From IMG/VR virus record IMGVR_UViG_2695420427_000005: 11,880 nt of DNA; one strand, 5' to 3'. Source of the DNA: a virus (lineage: Duplodnaviria > Heunggongvirae > Uroviricota > Caudoviricetes). Under the pieces are notes generated by a model. That model ran no database searches. It was not told where the DNA came from and was given only the letters and a program-made list of their open reading frames with translations. The position numbers and the translations under genes were made by a program. Shown here in pieces: positions 1 through 11,880 of this stretch (its first letter is position 1; the number at the start of each line of letters is the position of its first letter).

Positions 1-682
1 TATTCTCCCGCTCATGTTTAGCGCCGCTGAATGCCACCGCCGGAATAACAATTTGCCTGTCAAAAGGCTGATCGTCATAAATCCTGACGGTAATGGTCCC
101 TGATGGCCACCGCTCCGGTGCCCGGGAGTCCCGCGGAAAAGCCTTACCCACTGTTTTGACTATATCGCCTTCAATCTGGTTGGCTGACAGTTTCCCCTTA
201 ATCTGACAGTTCTCATTAATTGTGACATTGTTGAGCGTCCCGGCGTTCGCATTCACACTGCCACTGATATCTGCATTTTTAGCGGTCAGTTTTCCGTCCG
301 GTGTCAGGGAAAATGCCGGAGGATTACCGCCGCTGGTAATGGTGGGAGCCGTCAGATATTTCAGGAACACTTCATTCATGAATATCTGATCGCCCTGACC
401 AACAAACATCGGCTTTGTGTTGCCATTCGCAGGATTAATCATCGCAATCCTGTCTGCCGCCAGCAGCACCTGACTCTGCATTCCTGCTGGCGTATTCTCA
501 ATACCGGCACCGATACCCGCAATATAAAGGCGTCCGTCCTTCATCTGTTGCAGCTTCACAGCCCACATGCTGTTCAGATTATTATTTGTATCAACCTGAA
601 CCTTCTGTATCTGCTGGATTGCCGCACTCTGGTCTTTCAGTTTCTTATTGACAGTCTGCGTGATTTCATTGCTGACATCCGT

Positions 683-1330
683 AATGGACGTCCTGATTTC
701 AGCCAGGTCAGGCGCAAGCTGACCGTTATCAATCTGCGTCCACAGCTCCTGAGCCAGATGGGTTTTCCCTATCTCGCCTTTGAAAAAATCCAGATAGCCT
801 GATGCATCATCACTCGGCTGACCGACAGCCTCCACGAATGCCGATTTGCCAACGGTGTTCACACTGCGAACGTAAAAATAATAATCATGGCCCGGTTTGA
901 TATTGATACTGGCGGCTATCCAGTACAGCGCCGTACCAAGATAACGCGCGCTGGTTTCAACCTGCCTGATATCGGCAATCCGCGTTTCCGAGAACCAGAA
1001 CTCAAACTGTACCGTCGGATCATAAACCGCAAGATGCGGTATGGCGGTTATCTGAAAATAGCCCGGCGTCAGCTCAATCCGCGACGGTGCTGCCGGTGCG
1101 GCAATCCGGAACGATACCGACGCCGGATCGCCCTGCTGTCCCCACGCATTTATCGCCCGGACCGTCAGCGTGTAACGCCCCAGCGCCAGTTGCCTGAAGC
1201 GGTATGTGGTTTCCGTCGTCCGGGCCGTGCTGACCAGCCGCTCACTGCCGTCATCCGCTGTTACGGTCAGACGGAGCAGGAAGCTCACGCCCTTCACCAC
1301 CTTCGGCGTGTCCCAGCGCGCCAGCACCTG
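683..1330. repeat. Copy A of an approximately 650-bp imperfect direct repeat inside J (lambda-like allele, in frame with the J body and C-terminus)
   Basis: Direct comparison with 1332..1982: roughly 93-95 percent identity by eye over the first ~430 bp, including a ~117-bp perfect stretch, then strong divergence over the last ~215 bp. Encodes the FN3-like region [17 protein letters not shown] ... [39 protein letters not shown]. Confidence 0.85.
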
Positions 1331-1331
1331 A

Positions 1332-1982
1332 AATGGACGTCCTGATTTCAGTCAGGTCAGGCGCAAGCTGACCGTTATCAATCTGCGTCCACAGCTCCTG
1401 AGCCAGATGTGTTTTCCCTATCTCTCCTTTGAAAAAATCCAGGTAACCTTCCGCATCATCGCTCGCCCGACCGACAGCCTCCACGAATGCCGATTTGCCA
1501 ACGGTGTTCACACTGCGAACGTAAAAATAATAATCATGGCCCGGTTTGATATTGATACTGGCGGCTATCCAGTACAGCGCCGTGCCAAGATAGCGTGCTG
1601 TGGTTTCAACCTGCCTGATATCCGCAATCCGCTTTTCCGAGAACCAGAACTCAAACTGTACCGTCGGGTCATAAACGGCAAGATGCGGCGTTGCGGTTAT
1701 CTGAAAATAGCCCGGCGTCAGCTCAATCCGCGACGGTGCTGCCGGTGCGGCAATCCGGAAGGTGGTGGTGGCAGGTTCACCCTGCTGGCCATAGCTGTTT
1801 ATCGCCCGCACCGTCAGGGTGTATTCCCCGAGCGGCAGGCCGCTGAAACGGTGCTCCGTGTCTGCGGTGATGGCGGTGGTCACCAGTCTGGCATCCGTTC
1901 CCTTACCACTGGTCAGGCGCAGACTGAAGCGCACACCCTTCACCACCCGCGGCGTGTCCCATTTCGCCTGCGCCAGATACTG
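1332..1982. repeat. Copy B of the direct repeat inside J (divergent allele, one nucleotide out of register with flanking J sequence)
   Basis: Same J segment as copy A in a different allele ([35 protein letters not shown] ... EIRTSI). Offset between copies is 649 bp, so the two cannot share a frame. Corresponds to track ORF 1251..1946, which runs into copy A out of frame and stops at 1251. Confidence 0.8.
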
Positions 1983-3923
1983 GCCGTCAGGTGCTGCACT
2001 GCCGGTGGGATGACGCTGTTCAGGGAACCTGACTGCGGCTCAAAGCGGGCACCGTTATCCACGATGGCTTCTTTTTCCAGTACGTGCTGCACCGCCGTGA
2101 TGGCAAAGGTGCCGTCCGTGTTTTCCCGGACGGAGACACAGCGGAACAGGCGACGGCGCAGTGACGGCAGGGAGAGTCCCCACACCCCGTATGTCTCCAC
2201 ACCATCAGGCAGGGTACTGACCTGTATCCGGTCCGGCGCGGGGTGTTCGGTGATGTCCACACTCACCGGCTTACCGCTGCCGTTAATCAGGTTCACCGTG
2301 GCGGCACCGGTCTCCGGAAGTGTCACTTCACGGTCCAGCGTCAGAGTGCGGGTGGCAGCATCAATGGACAGGACACGTCCGCCGGTCAGGGTCCCGGCAT
2401 AGTCGTTATCACAGATTTCAATGATGTCACCGGGTGTGTGCCGCAGCCCCTGAGACCCGAGCGTGAAATCCACCGTCTGCGTTTCCAGCAGTTCGGTCTT
2501 TATCACCCACAGTCCGGCACGGTGGGCCTGACCGCGGCTGGTACAGCCGAACGCGTCCATCTTCAGCAGGTTGCGTCCGTAGCGCAGTATGGCTTCCGGG
2601 TCTTCCACCAGTTCCGTGGAGGTCTGCCAGCCGTTCTGCGGGTCGGTATAATTCACCTCCACCGCCGTGTGCCGGTCCTTCAGGGCACTGAAGCTGTAGC
2701 GGAAACCCACGCCGTTATCATCCACCACCACATCGCTGTTGGTGTACGGCCACACCACATCCGACGGGCGGTCCTGAACAAACGTCAGCGTCTGGCCGTT
2801 CCATACCGGCATACAGCGCATCGCCGAGCAGAAATCACTGAGCACGTCCCATGCCTTACGCTGTTGTGCCAGGTACGCATTGAAGGTCATCCGCGGCTCG
2901 GTCTCCCCGAAACTATCCGGGACCGTCTGGTCGCAGTACTGCCCGATGGCATACAGCGCCCACTTGTCCACATCCGCCGCCCCCAGACGTTTTCCCATGC
3001 CGTAGCGCGGGTGAGTCAGCATGTCCCACAGACACCAGGCCGGATTGTTGCTGTATGCCGGTTTCAGGCTGCCGTCCCAGATACCACTGTACGTGCGTTT
3101 TTCCGGGTCATAGTTTGACGGCACCTGGATGATGCGACCGCGGATATGGTAGTTCACCGTCATCTGCTGGCCGCCGAACTGCTCCGCATCCACCTGCAGC
3201 CCCACAATGGCCGTGTTCGGGTAGCACTGTTTCACATCGATGATTTCGGTGTATGACGACCACAGCGTCTTATTCTGCAGCTGGTCCGTGGTGCTGTCCG
3301 CTGTCTCCCGGACCATCCGGATGTTAAAAGGACGGGGAGGCAGATTATCCAGAATCACCGACGCCAGAAACTGCGAGGTGGTCTTGCCGTTAATGGTGAC
3401 ATCCTTTTCTGTCACCCAGTTACCGTTACGCTGTAACTGAATCAGCAGGCGGACGGATGTCGGGTTTCGGTCACCCTTTGACGTGGTCTGCACCAGTGAC
3501 TGCACCCCGAAGGTAACCCGCAGGCGGTCAATGTTCGCGGACGTAATGGTGCGCGTCACCGGTTTTGCCTTCGTCACTTCCACGCCCAGTCCGGTTTCAG
3601 CACCGGAGGACTCAAAGCCTTCCGGTGGTGTCTGCTCCTGCTCCCCGGCGCGTCAGACCGCCGTCACACCGTGTATCACGGGATTACCGTCCGTGTCCGT
3701 CAGCGGGGTTTTGTTCACCAGGATACTCTGCAGTCCCTTCACCGGACCTTCTATCAGTCCCTCACCAATCGCATCAATCACGCTCATCATCTGCGTGGAT
3801 TTGAGATTATCCTTCGCCTCACGAGGCGTGTGTGCCTTACCGCCACCTTTTCCCATACAGCCTTCCCCTGAATAAATTAACCGCCACTTGCCATTCCGTA
3901 CAGAAGTCGGATATCCTTCGCCC

Positions 3924-3995
3924 GAAAAGCATGAAACACATTTCTGCCATGCTAAAGAGAAACCCCGGTATCAGCAGATACCGGGGTTTTCTTTC
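3924..3995 (+). ncRNA. Candidate small RNA 1 (about 70 nt), antisense to the tail operon; weak promoter, strong terminator
   Basis: Possible sigma70 promoter TTGCCA (3888..3893), 18-bp spacer, TATCCT (3912..3917); ends at the 3961..3995 hairpin. The only ORF through it (MKHISAML...) reads across the terminator stem and has no SD. Confidence 0.2.
3961..3995. terminator. Intrinsic-terminator-like hairpin with U-rich tails on both strands (possibly bidirectional)
   Basis: Perfect 12-bp stem AACCCCGGTATC (3961..3972) / GATACCGGGGTT (3977..3988) with 4-nt loop AGCA. Plus strand follows with TTTTCTTTC; minus strand follows with TTTCTCTTT. Confidence 0.55.
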
Positions 3996-4061
3996 ATGCC
4001 CACCGATAATCCTGTTGGTTAAAACCGGTAATGGCATAAAAATTCTGAATATCTTCACATT

Positions 4062-4089
4062 TTCACAAACTGACTGTGGCGCGTATAAT
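4062..4089 (+). promoter_or_regulatory. Near-consensus sigma70 promoter, TTCACA-16 bp-TATAAT, firing away from J toward I (antisense to the tail operon)
   Basis: -35 TTCACA at 4062..4067, 16-bp spacer, -10 TATAAT at 4084..4089, in an AT-rich context; predicted start near 4096. Confidence 0.45.
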
Positions 4090-4095
4090 TTCTCT

Positions 4096-4193
4096 GCGTT
4101 AATTTTTTTGTCGTGATATAAGAATAATTCCTTACACTTAATCTTCGTAACTCTCCCGCAGTTCCTGTCCGCGATCACTGCGGGATTTTTTTA
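4096..4193 (+). ncRNA. Candidate small RNA 2 (about 95-100 nt) between promoter 4062..4089 and terminator 4154..4192
   Basis: Promoter and terminator bracket about 100 nt with no plausible start codon plus RBS. The sequence is AU-rich with a 3' hairpin and poly-U tail, the usual architecture of Hfq-type sRNAs. Confidence 0.3.
4154..4193 (+). terminator. Rho-independent terminator, plus-strand orientation
   Basis: 9-bp stem TCCCGCAGT (4154..4162) / ACTGCGGGA (4177..4185) followed by TTTTTTT (4186..4192). The minus-strand side has no U-tract, so it is unidirectional. It lies just 3' of the I stop but points the wrong way to terminate I. Confidence 0.55.
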
Positions 4194-4199
4194 TTCTTT

Positions 4200-6230: not shown

Positions 6231-6559
6231 CAGTTCACCACCTGCTTAAACTCCGCGCTGAACTCAACGCGCAACATCCCGACCCGCGCAGACCACCCGG
6301 CACAGGTCACCTTTATCTGCCGGTATGCATAGGGTGGCTTCCACAAAAATGCCTTCCAGCCACCGTGCTCTGCCAGGAACGCTTCCAGATGCCGGGCCTC
6401 CTCCCGGGTCACGGAAAGCGTCACCCTGTATGTTTTCAGGTCAGCATTCAGCCCTGCCGCCATACGCTGTGAGTACCCGTCACCAAAACGCACTTCACGC
6501 ACCGATGGCTGCGAGTTCACCTCCATATCCGGCTTCACTTTCCAGCGAAAGGTTTTCAT
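6230..6559 (-). CDS. M: Minor tail protein M
   Basis: 109 aa, MKTFRWKVKPDMEVNSQPSVREVRFGDGYSQR ...; same length and sequence pattern as lambda gpM. Overlaps the H stop by 4 nt. Confidence 0.92.
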   Translation of the reverse strand: MKTFRWKVKPDMEVNSQPSVREVRFGDGYSQRMAAGLNADLKTYRVTLSVTREEARHLEAFLAEHGGWKAFLWKPPYAYRQIKVTCAGWSARVGMLRVEFSAEFKQVVN

Positions 6560-9129: not shown

Positions 9130-9981
9130 ATCTCACACCTCCCGGAATCCCCGCTGAAGCCATCATTAATGCGGCATCATCCACCATGACATCCGCCACA
9201 TCCGCAGACGATAAAATATCGCGCCCTCCGTCCCCACCGAACCGGACGCCTCCGGCAAGTCCTGCCGCTTTCTGCATCAGCATTTTGTCCTCATCCGGCC
9301 TCTCCACCTGCTCTTCCTCATGCCGGGGGACAAGCAGGCTGAAATCAGAGGGATGCATATCCGGATCGCAAAAAAACAGGCTGAGTACAGCGTACGTCAG
9401 CCCGGAAAAATGCATATCCAGCTGGGTATCCTGAAAATAATGCGTGCGGTAAAAACGGCGCCAGTCGGCATATTCGGTGGATGTCATCCCGGCAAGCATG
9501 GCGCGCCAGTCGGGTCTCCCCATCTCACGCGCCAGTCTGAGGGCAAAGTTCAGCTCGCCGTCGAAGACTTTCCCGCAGAAAAATCATCATCAGTCAGCGT
9601 GTTATTTTTCGCCACTTCAGTAATATCAGTATCCGGACGAACAGCTTCGATCATCCCGGACAGGCACAACACCACGTCTTCCGCCCGGGCAATGGCATCG
9701 GCAGGCCAGGTGGTGAGCACTTCCTGCTCTATCTTCATCACGGCCTCATTCATTGACGGTGACTGCGTTTTCTGTGGATGGTTATGCCACAGGGACATCG
9801 CCACCAGAAACGCGCCGGTTCTGACGAGATCTTCCACGCTTACCTGCAGGTTGCCGCTGGATTCTGCCTGTTCTGCACGCCGTTTCAGGAGGGCAAGATG
9901 CTCGATACGCTGCAGCGCAGACAATTCGGAAAGCGTGACAGACACACCGTTATATTCAAATTGTTCTGTTTTCAGAAACAT
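9110..9981 (-). CDS. T: Tail assembly chaperone G-T fusion produced by programmed -1 ribosomal frameshift
   Basis: Slippery sequence G GGA AAG on the minus strand (plus 9568..9574). The -1 frame continues VFDGELNFALRLAREMGRPDWRAMLAGMTSTEYADWRRFY ... to the stop at 9110..9112, matching lambda gpT. Frame arithmetic (G codons at coordinates 0 mod 3, T codons at 1 mod 3) fits a -1 shift. Confidence 0.8.
9550..9981 (-). CDS. G: Tail assembly chaperone G
   Basis: 143 aa, MFLKTEQFEYNGVSVTLSELSALQRIEHLALLKR ..., ending ...DDDFSAGKSSTAS. The slippery heptamer lies about 5 codons before the stop. Confidence 0.9.
   Translation of the reverse strand: MFLKTEQFEYNGVSVTLSELSALQRIEHLALLKRRAEQAESSGNLQVSVEDLVRTGAFLVAMSLWHNHPQKTQSPSMNEAVMKIEQEVLTTWPADAIARAEDVVLCLSGMIEAVRPDTDITEVAKNNTLTDDDFSAGKSSTAS
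9568..9574 (-). other. Programmed -1 frameshift slippery heptamer GGGAAAG of the G / G-T pair
   Basis: Exact X XXY YYZ heptamer in the correct phase with the G reading frame, at the conserved position near the G 3' end. Confidence 0.75.
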
Positions 9982-11736: not shown

Positions 11737-11880
11737 TTATCGTCGCCGGTTAACTGCGGGTGGTTGCCCACGGTTGAGCCAGAGATAACAGCTGCCCCCG
11801 TCATCCGGAGATGTCAGCGCCAGTGATATAAGACGGTAATTCGCCATTTGGATTGTCCGCTCCACCCAACATGTTGTTTC
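11737..11880 (-). CDS. FII: Head-tail joining protein FII, C-terminal 47 codons only (5' end beyond window)
   Basis: In-frame translation from the window edge ends ...SPDDGGSCYLWLNRGQPPAVNRRR stop, matching the lambda gpFII C-terminus (...SPDDGGSCHLWLGRGVPPAVNRRR). Stop at 11737..11739, 14 bp before the Z start. Confidence 0.75.
   Translation of the reverse strand, partial: ETTCWVERTIQMANYRLISLALTSPDDGGSCYLWLNRGQPPAVNRRR

What the first reader, a model, noticed from the sequence alone, without database searches (positions are those of the whole stretch)
683..1982. J contains two adjacent copies of the same ~650-bp segment from different alleles; removing 1331..1981 restores the reading frame
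Segments 683..1330 and 1332..1982 encode the same FN3-like part of J. They are about 94 percent identical over ~430 bp and strongly divergent over the remaining ~215 bp, where copy A is lambda-like and copy B is not. The copies are offset by 649 bp and so lie in different frames. Copy A is in phase with both the N-terminal J body (codons at coordinates 1 mod 3 above 1982) and the C-terminal part. Deleting exactly 1331..1981 (651 bp) would join ...AVQHLTA directly to [14 protein letters not shown]... in frame. This points to recombination between two J alleles (for example between co-resident lambdoid prophages), a mosaic intermediate, or an assembly artefact across a repeated prophage region.
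Basis: seen in the sequence. Interest (0 to 1): 0.7.

Follow-up and report, generated by a model that had tools for sequence, protein, structure and literature searches.

The report
Hybrid 649-bp repeat in dead J gene
A long-dead phage tail-tip gene (J) in a defective Shigella sonnei prophage carries, in this one sequence only, an extra 649-bp piece copied from a different J allele; it has no function and is either a private recombination scar or an assembly chimera.

Summary
The repeat is real in the sequence. Windows 683-1331 and 1332-1982 are two copies of one J segment: 94.6% identical over 429 nt, 68% over about 220 nt, 649 nt apart. Copy A is lambda-like and copy B is not.

Copy B is the resident allele. 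Window 11880-1332 matches the Shigella sonnei defective prophage almost perfectly. That J was already dead, with a TGA at codon 68 (3655-3653) and a 22-nt deletion between CTGACGG repeats (at 1984-1990). Both lesions occur in hundreds of S. sonnei contigs, all single-copy where inspected.

Removing 704-1352 recreates the S. sonnei sequence. The removed 649 nt is a circular permutation of another natural allele, "S" (E. coli APEC E123 pEND_Eco123-2 J), with one mismatch. Deleting 1331-1981 restores phase only because -22 + 649 = 627. It would not restore J.

The junction is absent from every collection searched. The unit cuts an Ig-like domain and is not a multiple of 3.

Origin is unresolved: single-crossover integration of a head-to-tail-joined S fragment (about 0.5) or an assembly chimera (about 0.4). 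Either way it is ordinary and of low interest.

The parts
1..3856 (-). J (tip attachment / central tail fibre) pseudogene. It starts at ATG 3856 and runs off the window at coordinate 1, about 245 nt before its stop.
   Evidence: ORFs and translation. Homology to annotated gpJ in L001/L002. Pfam domains FNIII-A_GpJ, Phage-tail_3, Ig_J, Ig_J_second, Phage_Tail_Tip, Ig_GpJ_C.
3653..3655 (-). TGA nonsense codon at J codon 68 (TGG in intact relatives).
   Evidence: The resulting 67-aa fragment is on 551 contigs and is named as a Shigella sonnei protein.
1984..1990 (-). Surviving CTGACGG copy that marks a 22-nt deletion (TGGAGGTGAGCGCAGCTGACGG in relatives). It shifts the frame by -1 into copy B.
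   Evidence: String comparison with L001/L002. The same lesion is in L003-L012: the exact 547-aa ORF ending ...[17 protein letters not shown] is found in 62 blocks of the collection.
1332..1982 (-). Copy B, the resident (R) allele of the segment. It encodes Ig_J positions 28-104, the whole Ig_J_second domain and a linker.
   Evidence: 99.4-99.8% identical to S. sonnei L003-L012. Pfam.
1331..1332 (-). Non-homologous junction ...GACGTCCATT|TCAGGTGCTGG..., joining the end of the unit to the start of the unit. Microhomology is at most 2 nt.
   Evidence: The 24-mer across it is absent from genome contigs, viral contigs and metagenome contigs. No exact contiguous match in 5,426 complete E. coli genomes.
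683..1331 (-). Copy A. Positions 1331-704 are the foreign S allele and the rest returns to the resident allele.
   Evidence: 704-1331 is 100% identical (628/628) to L013, NZ_CP126957.1 J. Allele table.
704..1352 (-). One register of the 649-nt inserted tract. Removing it recreates the S. sonnei single-copy sequence. The tract is a circular permutation of S segment [683..1331] with one mismatch, at 1332.
704..760 (-). 57-nt stretch identical in R and S (equivalent to 1353-1409 in copy B), within which the homologous R/S exchange lies. Copy B is R-type at 1410 and S-type at 1352. Copy A is S-type at 761 and R-type at 703.
356..374 (-). Five clustered S-type SNPs in an otherwise resident-type C-terminal region. 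The possible S tract is 291-481. Private to this sequence.
1596..1600 (-). ACAGCA variant (3 SNPs against most S. sonnei loci). It is shared with S. sonnei L012, so it is a lineage marker and not part of the event.
11811..11880 (.). 70 nt not homologous to intact relatives and continuous with an IS21-family element in S. sonnei L003. This is where the prophage is truncated upstream of gene Z.

Best explanation
**What it is (shown).** The window is the tail-gene block of the defective lambdoid prophage that Shigella sonnei carries. The prophage is cut by an IS21-family element upstream of gene Z. Its J gene was already inactivated in the lineage by a TGA at codon 68 and a 22-nt slippage-type deletion.

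In this one sequence the dead J holds an extra 649 nt. The insert is a head-to-tail-joined unit of a different natural J allele (S), placed in homologous register. The result is a hybrid tandem repeat:
- copy B is R-left plus S-right;
- copy A is S-left plus R-right.

**How it most likely arose (inferred).** S-allele DNA came from a second lambdoid phage or prophage. A 649-bp S segment whose ends had been joined recombined with the resident pseudogene. The joined form could be a linear fragment circularised by ligation, or a tandem duplication in the donor. One RecA-type crossover in the 57-nt identical stretch (704-760, equivalent to 1353-1409) integrated it Campbell-style. A template switch or homology-facilitated illegitimate recombination would give nearly the same product. 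The S-type patch at 356-374 would be a second short conversion tract from the same donor.

**Function (inferred).** None. The unit is not a multiple of 3, it cuts the first Ig-like/FNIII domain at profile position 27, and every frame is interrupted.
For: **Resident identity and lineage-wide lesions.**
- Window 11880-1332 is 99.96-99.98% identical to L003-L012.
- The 67-aa and 547-aa fragments are on 551 contigs and in 62 blocks respectively, and are named as S. sonnei proteins.

**Foreign allele.**
- 704-1331 is 628/628 identical to the J of NZ_CP126957.1 and 99.7% identical to three E. coli chromosomes.

**Reciprocal allele pattern and exact permutation.**
- Shown in the allele table and the reconstruction.
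- Deleting 704-1352 gives identity to L012 over 11,209 nt, except at 6393 and 356-374.
- The deleted tract equals permuted S with 1 mismatch.

**No sign of a scaffold join.**
- There is no N in the window. The tandem J strings in other S. sonnei drafts all sit on single-N scaffold joins.
- The sequence A(1352)...T(1332) is found as such in neither R nor S.

**Mechanism has precedent.**
- In E. coli, linear DNA is circularised by ligation and integrated by a recA-dependent single crossover. HFIR also occurs, at 3x10^-10 (PMC3240628).
Against: - The structure is private to one sequence. 13 ORF variants crossing or following the junction are absent from a collection of about 15 billion proteins. 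All six S. sonnei loci on contigs longer than 1 Mb are single-copy.
- The exact S allele was not seen among the other J copies sampled from S. sonnei drafts; the best match was 95.4%.
- The mosaic is patchy over about 1.1 kb (1352, 1332, 703, 356-374) in a strain otherwise about 1 SNP per 10 kb from L012. That is many exchanges for one recent event, and it is what a consensus over paralogous reads looks like.
- The junction has essentially no microhomology, which is unusual for illegitimate joins in enterobacteria.
- Copy B ends exactly at an R/S polymorphic site (683-equivalent), 78 nt after its last R-specific base. The other end of the window lies 70 nt inside an IS. Both look like short-read contig boundaries.
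- No reads are available to test any of this.
Confidence: 0.5

Rival explanations
1. Assembly or scaffolding chimera. The sequenced sample contains the resident pseudogene plus at least one other J allele, either a co-resident prophage or contaminating E. coli DNA. A contig of the resident locus ending at 1332 was abutted to, or threaded into, a contig of the S allele starting at 1331. Paralogous reads produced the patchy consensus. No such molecule exists in the cell.
For: - It is unique among hundreds of S. sonnei assemblies.
- This locus is demonstrably hard to assemble. Drafts L009, L015 and L016 string J fragments of different alleles in tandem.
- The allele mosaic is patchy.
- The junction is blunt and coincides with an R/S SNP site. 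It lies 78 nt after the last R-specific base, and the far end of the window is 70 nt inside an IS21-family element.
- The unit is out of frame and cuts a domain.
Against: - There is no N at the junction, whereas every comparable join in L009, L015 and L016 carries one.
- A de Bruijn-graph contig cannot create a novel non-homologous junction without reads that contain it (inference).
- The A(1352)-T(1332) combination within 21 nt is in neither parent allele, so it also needs real reads.
- If an identical S gene were co-resident, a short-read contig should break inside the 628-nt S tract, and it does not (inference).
Confidence: 0.4
2. A lambda-like J (copy A in phase with body and tail) was interrupted by insertion of a 651-bp copy-B segment from another allele. 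Excising 1331-1981 would give back a working gene.
For: The frame arithmetic is correct.
Against: - Copy B and everything upstream is the resident S. sonnei allele, and single-copy relatives carry copy B, not copy A.
- The phase match is explained by -22 + 649 = 627.
- The excision product lacks 9 codons and still has the TGA at codon 68.
- The true ancestral reconstruction is removal of 704-1352.
Confidence: 0.03
3. A natural feature of this J family: an expanded array of Ig-like/FNIII domains, or a diversity-generating template/variable repeat pair.
For: - gpJ does contain two successive FNIII domains (PMC11101478).
- Some database J proteins are over-long, at 1217-1882 aa.
Against: - The unit is 649 nt, not a multiple of 3, and it starts at position 27-28 of the 104-position Ig_J profile.
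- The listed best E. coli relatives and all S. sonnei loci inspected have one copy.
- The two over-long S. sonnei proteins span single-N scaffold joins.
- The 23 mismatches in the conserved part are not adenine-specific, and the window holds only tail genes, with no reverse transcriptase.
Confidence: 0.02

Closest known systems
Bacteriophage lambda gpJ (central tail fibre / tip attachment protein J, NP_040600.1)
   Same: - Same gene position: after Z-U-V-G-T-H-M-L-K-I and before lom.
- Same Pfam architecture.
- The repeated unit corresponds to most of FNIII-1 plus FNIII-2 and the linker to the alpha-helical shaft (PMC11101478).
   Different: - Here it is a pseudogene, with a nonsense codon at position 68, a 22-nt deletion and a 649-nt out-of-frame hybrid repeat.
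- Only copy A's divergent part is lambda-like (94.5%). The resident copy B is 66.7% identical there.
Resident defective lambdoid prophage of Shigella sonnei (e.g. CP044151.1, CP044191.1, CP060117.1, CP041511.1, UGZB01000001.1)
   Same: - Window 11880-1332 and 703-1 are essentially identical to it.
- It has the same IS21-family truncation, the same TGA and the same 22-nt deletion.
   Different: Those genomes have a single copy of the segment. They lack the 649-nt S tract, A1352 and the 356-374 patch.
Single-crossover (Campbell-type) integration of circularised linear DNA, and homology-facilitated illegitimate recombination, in E. coli (PMC3240628)
   Same: The predicted product matches the allele pattern seen. 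It is a direct repeat whose two copies are reciprocal hybrids of donor and recipient, with a donor-end to donor-start junction between them.
   Different: - Those events were measured with engineered plasmids in conjugation.
- Here the donor would be a 649-bp piece of a phage J gene, and the event is inferred from one sequence only.
False duplications at contig or scaffold joins in draft assemblies
   Same: - Two paralogous or allelic versions of one segment are placed in tandem.
- The structure is private to one assembly.
- It lies in a multi-copy prophage gene.
- Comparable strings are seen in S. sonnei drafts L009, L015 and L016.
   Different: No gap character at the join, and the join is not at a shared k-mer.

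Membership tests
Lambda-type gpJ tip attachment protein gene | Domain architecture FNIII-A_GpJ / Phage-tail_3 / Ig_J / Ig_J_second / Phage_Tail_Tip / Ig_GpJ_C | tested here: met
   Pfam on the intact relative and on both copies. Precomputed Pfam hits on the identical S. sonnei fragments.
Lambda-type gpJ tip attachment protein gene | Position at the end of the tail operon, after I and before lom | tested here: met
   Gene order in the window and in L001-L012.
Lambda-type gpJ tip attachment protein gene | One uninterrupted ORF of about 1,130-1,160 codons | tested here: not met
   TGA at 3655-3653, a frameshift at 1984-1990 and a frame change at 1331/1332. It is a pseudogene of the family.
Natural in-frame Ig-like/FNIII domain array expansion | Repeat unit is a multiple of 3 nt and begins and ends at domain boundaries | tested here: not met
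   The unit is 649 nt. It starts at Ig_J profile position 27-28 of 104.
Natural in-frame Ig-like/FNIII domain array expansion | Recurs in homologous prophages | tested here: not met
   All listed best E. coli matches span about 1,277-1,280 nt for a 1,901-nt query, i.e. one copy. All S. sonnei loci are single-copy. The junction 24-mer is absent from three collections.
Diversity-generating retroelement (template/variable repeat) | Mismatches confined to adenines of the template repeat, and a reverse transcriptase gene nearby | tested here: not met
   All substitution types are present in the 23 mismatches. The window holds only tail genes plus an IS end.
Hybrid tandem duplication by single-crossover integration of a circular or tandem donor segment | The two copies are reciprocal donor/recipient hybrids, the insert is a circular permutation of the donor, and removing one unit length restores the recipient | tested here: met
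   with 1 mismatch in 649 at the junction-adjacent base.
Hybrid tandem duplication by single-crossover integration of a circular or tandem donor segment | The junction exists in the organism's DNA | not testable with these tools
   No reads are available. The source assembly was not found in any collection.
Assembly false duplication | Private to one assembly and located in a multi-copy region | tested here: met
   Several J alleles co-occur in S. sonnei drafts.
Assembly false duplication | Gap character or contig boundary at the join, and no reads across it | tested here: inconclusive
   There is no N in the window. Boundary-like spacing is present: 78 nt after the last R-specific base, at an R/S SNP site. 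Reads are unavailable.

The most novel reading that the evidence does not exclude
The repeat is a real, very recent recombination scar. It would be a natural example, caught before any decay, of a small fragment of an incoming lambdoid phage's J gene being end-joined and integrated by a single crossover into a dead prophage's J gene. A second short conversion patch from the same donor lies 330 nt away. That would document, in a clinical Shigella lineage, a route so far measured only with engineered plasmids, by which defective prophages take up tail-fibre sequence and become mosaic.
Probability: 0.45. Interest if true: 0.3.

Novelty: new member of a known kind. Interest (0 to 1): 0.12.

Why it matters
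It matters little biologically. The gene was already dead, the repeat is out of frame, and it is seen in one sequence only.

Its practical value is as a caution. Tandem, allele-divergent segments in multi-copy prophage tail genes should be checked against sister genomes before they are read as functional rearrangements. A coincidental frame match (-22 + 649 = 627) can look like a 'restorable' gene.

If the junction proves real, it gives a clean natural example of how fragments of incoming phage DNA are patched into resident defective prophages, which is one source of J-gene mosaicism.

Tried and rejected
- **Same structure in complete E. coli genomes.** Queries of 1.9 kb, 11.9 kb and two about 100 nt long across the junctions returned only single-copy matches. 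The tool joined the two halves of the junction queries, so I judged by piece number and span.
- **Exact 24-mer across junction 1331/1332.** No hits in genome contigs, viral contigs or metagenome contigs.
- **Finding the source assembly by exact protein look-up.** I tried five start variants of the junction-crossing ORF. I also tried eight variants of the copy-A ORF, both partial and completed with the resident C-terminus. None is on record.
- **L009.** It looked like a second example (547-aa fragment followed by a full J), but it is a scaffold join with a single N. The over-long S. sonnei 'J proteins' P0136 and P0141 are the same kind of join.
- **A third allele for the ACAGCA cluster at 1596-1600.** No E. 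coli genome matches 1332-1640 better than 97.4%. The cluster is a lineage variant shared with S. sonnei L012.
- **Diversity-generating retroelement.** Rejected on the mismatch spectrum and on gene content.
- **Natural FNIII array expansion.** Rejected on unit length, domain cut and absence in relatives.
- **Head-to-tail ligated 649-bp PCR amplicon contaminating the library.** This would explain T1332 as primer-derived. I dropped it because the S-type patch at 356-374 lies outside such an amplicon and nothing can test the idea.
- **Microhomology at the junction.** At most 'AT'.

Full report
**Observation**

The J gene lies on the minus strand, from ATG 3856 to beyond coordinate 1. The repeat finder reports 676-975 against 1325-1624 (93%, spacing 649) and 1265-1331 against 1911-1977 (78%, spacing 646).

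My alignments give:

| Comparison | Identity |
|---|---|
| Copy A vs copy B, conserved 3' part of the unit (429 nt) | 94.6% |
| Copy A vs copy B, 5' part (about 220 nt) | 68% |
| Copy A 5' part vs lambda J | 94.5% |
| Copy B 5' part vs lambda J | 66.7% |

Compared with intact relatives (E. coli cM8a = L001, O17_K12a = L002), this J has two further lesions.
- Codon 68 is TGA at 3655-3653, where the relatives have TGG.
- At the boundary between the N-terminal body and copy B, 22 nt are missing. Relatives read CACCTGACGG-TGGAGGTGAGCGCAGCTGACGG-CCAGTATCTGG. The window reads CACCTGACGG-CCAGTATCTGG. This is a deletion between two 7-nt CTGACGG repeats.

The frameshift at about 1982 therefore comes from this deletion. 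With the 22 nt restored, copy B is the in-frame continuation of the body.

**Where the window comes from**

- The exact 547-aa ORF runs from after the TGA to the stop caused by the 22-nt deletion. It is encoded in 62 blocks of the public collection, on six contigs longer than 1 Mb and many drafts.
- The 67-aa N-terminal fragment is on 551 contigs and is named as a Shigella sonnei protein.
- Window 11880-1332 is 99.94-99.98% identical to these loci (L003-L012). Against L003 and L004 it has four differences, all inside copy B.
- In all of these loci the next ORF is 509-513 aa, which means one copy of the segment.
- The last 70 nt of the window (11811-11880) are the end of an IS21-family element that truncates the prophage upstream of gene Z.

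The setting is the well-populated, long-dead J pseudogene of a defective S. sonnei prophage. Copy B is its resident allele (R).

**The second copy**

- Window 1331-704 is 84-85% identical to R.
- The same stretch is 628/628 identical to the J gene of E. coli APEC E123 plasmid pEND_Eco123-2 (L013) and 99.7% identical to three E. coli chromosomes. I call this allele S.
- Upstream of the breakpoint S reads GGGGAATA|TCAGGTGCTGG. The window reads GACGTCCATT|TCAGGTGCTGG. The join is non-homologous, with at most 2 nt of microhomology.
- Downstream, the window returns to R between 761 (S-type) and 703 (R-type).
- Copy B is R-type at 1410 but S-type at 1352, the site homologous to 703. The two copies are therefore reciprocal hybrids.

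I tested this directly.
- Deleting 704-1352 gives a sequence identical to S. sonnei L012 over 11,209 nt, except for one SNP (6393) and five clustered S-type SNPs at 356-374.
- The deleted 649 nt equal a circular permutation of S segment [683..1331] with a single mismatch, at the junction-adjacent base 1332.

The ACAGCA cluster at 1596-1600 is shared with L012. It is a lineage variant and not part of the event.

- Deleting 1331-1981 does put AVQHLTA and [10 protein letters not shown] in frame, but only because -22 + 649 = 627 = 3 x 209.
- The product would lack nine codons present in lambda and in the relatives.
- It would still stop at codon 68.
- The intruder is the S tract, not copy B.

**Not a designed repeat**

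- Each unit encodes Ig_J profile positions 27/28-104, the whole Ig_J_second domain and a linker. It cuts the first of gpJ's two FNIII domains and is not a multiple of three (domain names in lambda from PMC11101478).
- The E. coli relatives listed and all S. sonnei loci inspected are single-copy.
- The 24-mer across the junction is absent from the genome, viral and metagenome collections.
- The mismatch spectrum is not adenine-specific.
- Only tail genes are present.

**Origin**

The pattern is an in-register insertion of a head-to-tail-joined donor unit with reciprocal hybrid copies. That is what Campbell-type integration of a small circular donor gives, and so does recombination with a donor that already carries a tandem duplication. 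In E. coli, linear DNA is known to be circularised by ligation and integrated by a recA-dependent single crossover. [quoted passage not shown] The crossover would lie in the 57-nt R/S-identical stretch 704-760. The 356-374 patch would be a second short tract from the same donor.

I cannot exclude an assembly origin. The points for and against it are:

| For an assembly chimera | Against an assembly chimera |
|---|---|
| The structure is private: 13 ORF variants are absent from about 15 billion proteins | The comparable joins in other drafts carry a single N; the window has none |
| S. sonnei drafts from other projects string J fragments of different alleles in tandem at this locus (L009, L015, L016) | A graph assembler cannot invent a non-homologous junction (inference) |
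| The allele mosaic is patchy | The A1352...T1332 combination is in neither parent allele |
| Copy B ends at an R/S polymorphic site, 78 nt after its last R-specific base | A co-resident identical S gene should have broken the contig inside the 628-nt S tract (inference) |
| The other end of the window sits 70 nt inside an IS | |

I put a real recombination scar at about 0.5 and an assembly chimera at about 0.4. Reads or a PCR across 600-2100 would settle it.

**Verdict**

| Item | Result |
|---|---|
| Observation | Confirmed |
| Novelty | Ordinary kind of lesion in an ordinary pseudogene |
| Interest | Low |

Noticed in passing
window 3653-3655 (minus strand): TGA nonsense at J codon 68, where intact relatives have TGG. 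It is shared by hundreds of S. sonnei contigs and shows that J was dead before the repeat arose.
   Followed up: yes
window 1984-1990 (minus strand): 22-nt deletion between two 7-nt CTGACGG direct repeats, a slippage-type deletion. It is lineage-wide in S. sonnei and is the real cause of the frameshift at the start of copy B.
   Followed up: yes
window 3857-4199: The I-J intergenic spacer is 343 nt, against 60 nt in lambda, and it is also present in intact relatives. On the plus strand, antisense to the tail operon, a promoter-like site (TTCACA-16-TATAAT, 11/12, 4062-4089) and a terminator-like hairpin with a T-run (4168-4194) bracket a candidate transcript of about 100 nt. Its fold z-score is -2.3 and it has no Rfam match. 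A minus-strand hairpin with a T-rich tail lies at about 3962-3998.
   Followed up: partly
window 11811-11880: The end of an IS21-family element abuts the region upstream of gene Z. The head genes of the prophage are therefore cut off, which makes the prophage defective.
   Followed up: partly
window 356-374 (minus strand): Five S-type SNPs within 19 nt in an otherwise resident-type C-terminal region. They are private to this sequence. They could be a short conversion tract or a consensus over paralogous reads.
   Followed up: partly
L009 10293; L015 12982 and 15204; L016 7843: Other S. sonnei draft assemblies join J fragments of different alleles in tandem across single-N scaffold gaps. This produces 'J proteins' of 1,512-1,720 aa in public protein databases (P0136, P0141).
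   Followed up: yes
window 9574 (minus strand): A GGGAAAG heptamer near the end of the gpG ORF (9550-9981). This is the expected G/GT -1 programmed frameshift site of lambda-like tail chaperones.
   Followed up: no
P0137: A 1,882-aa lambda-type J protein is labelled Bacillus thuringiensis Sbt003 in NCBI. This is probably contamination or a chimeric contig in that assembly.
   Followed up: no
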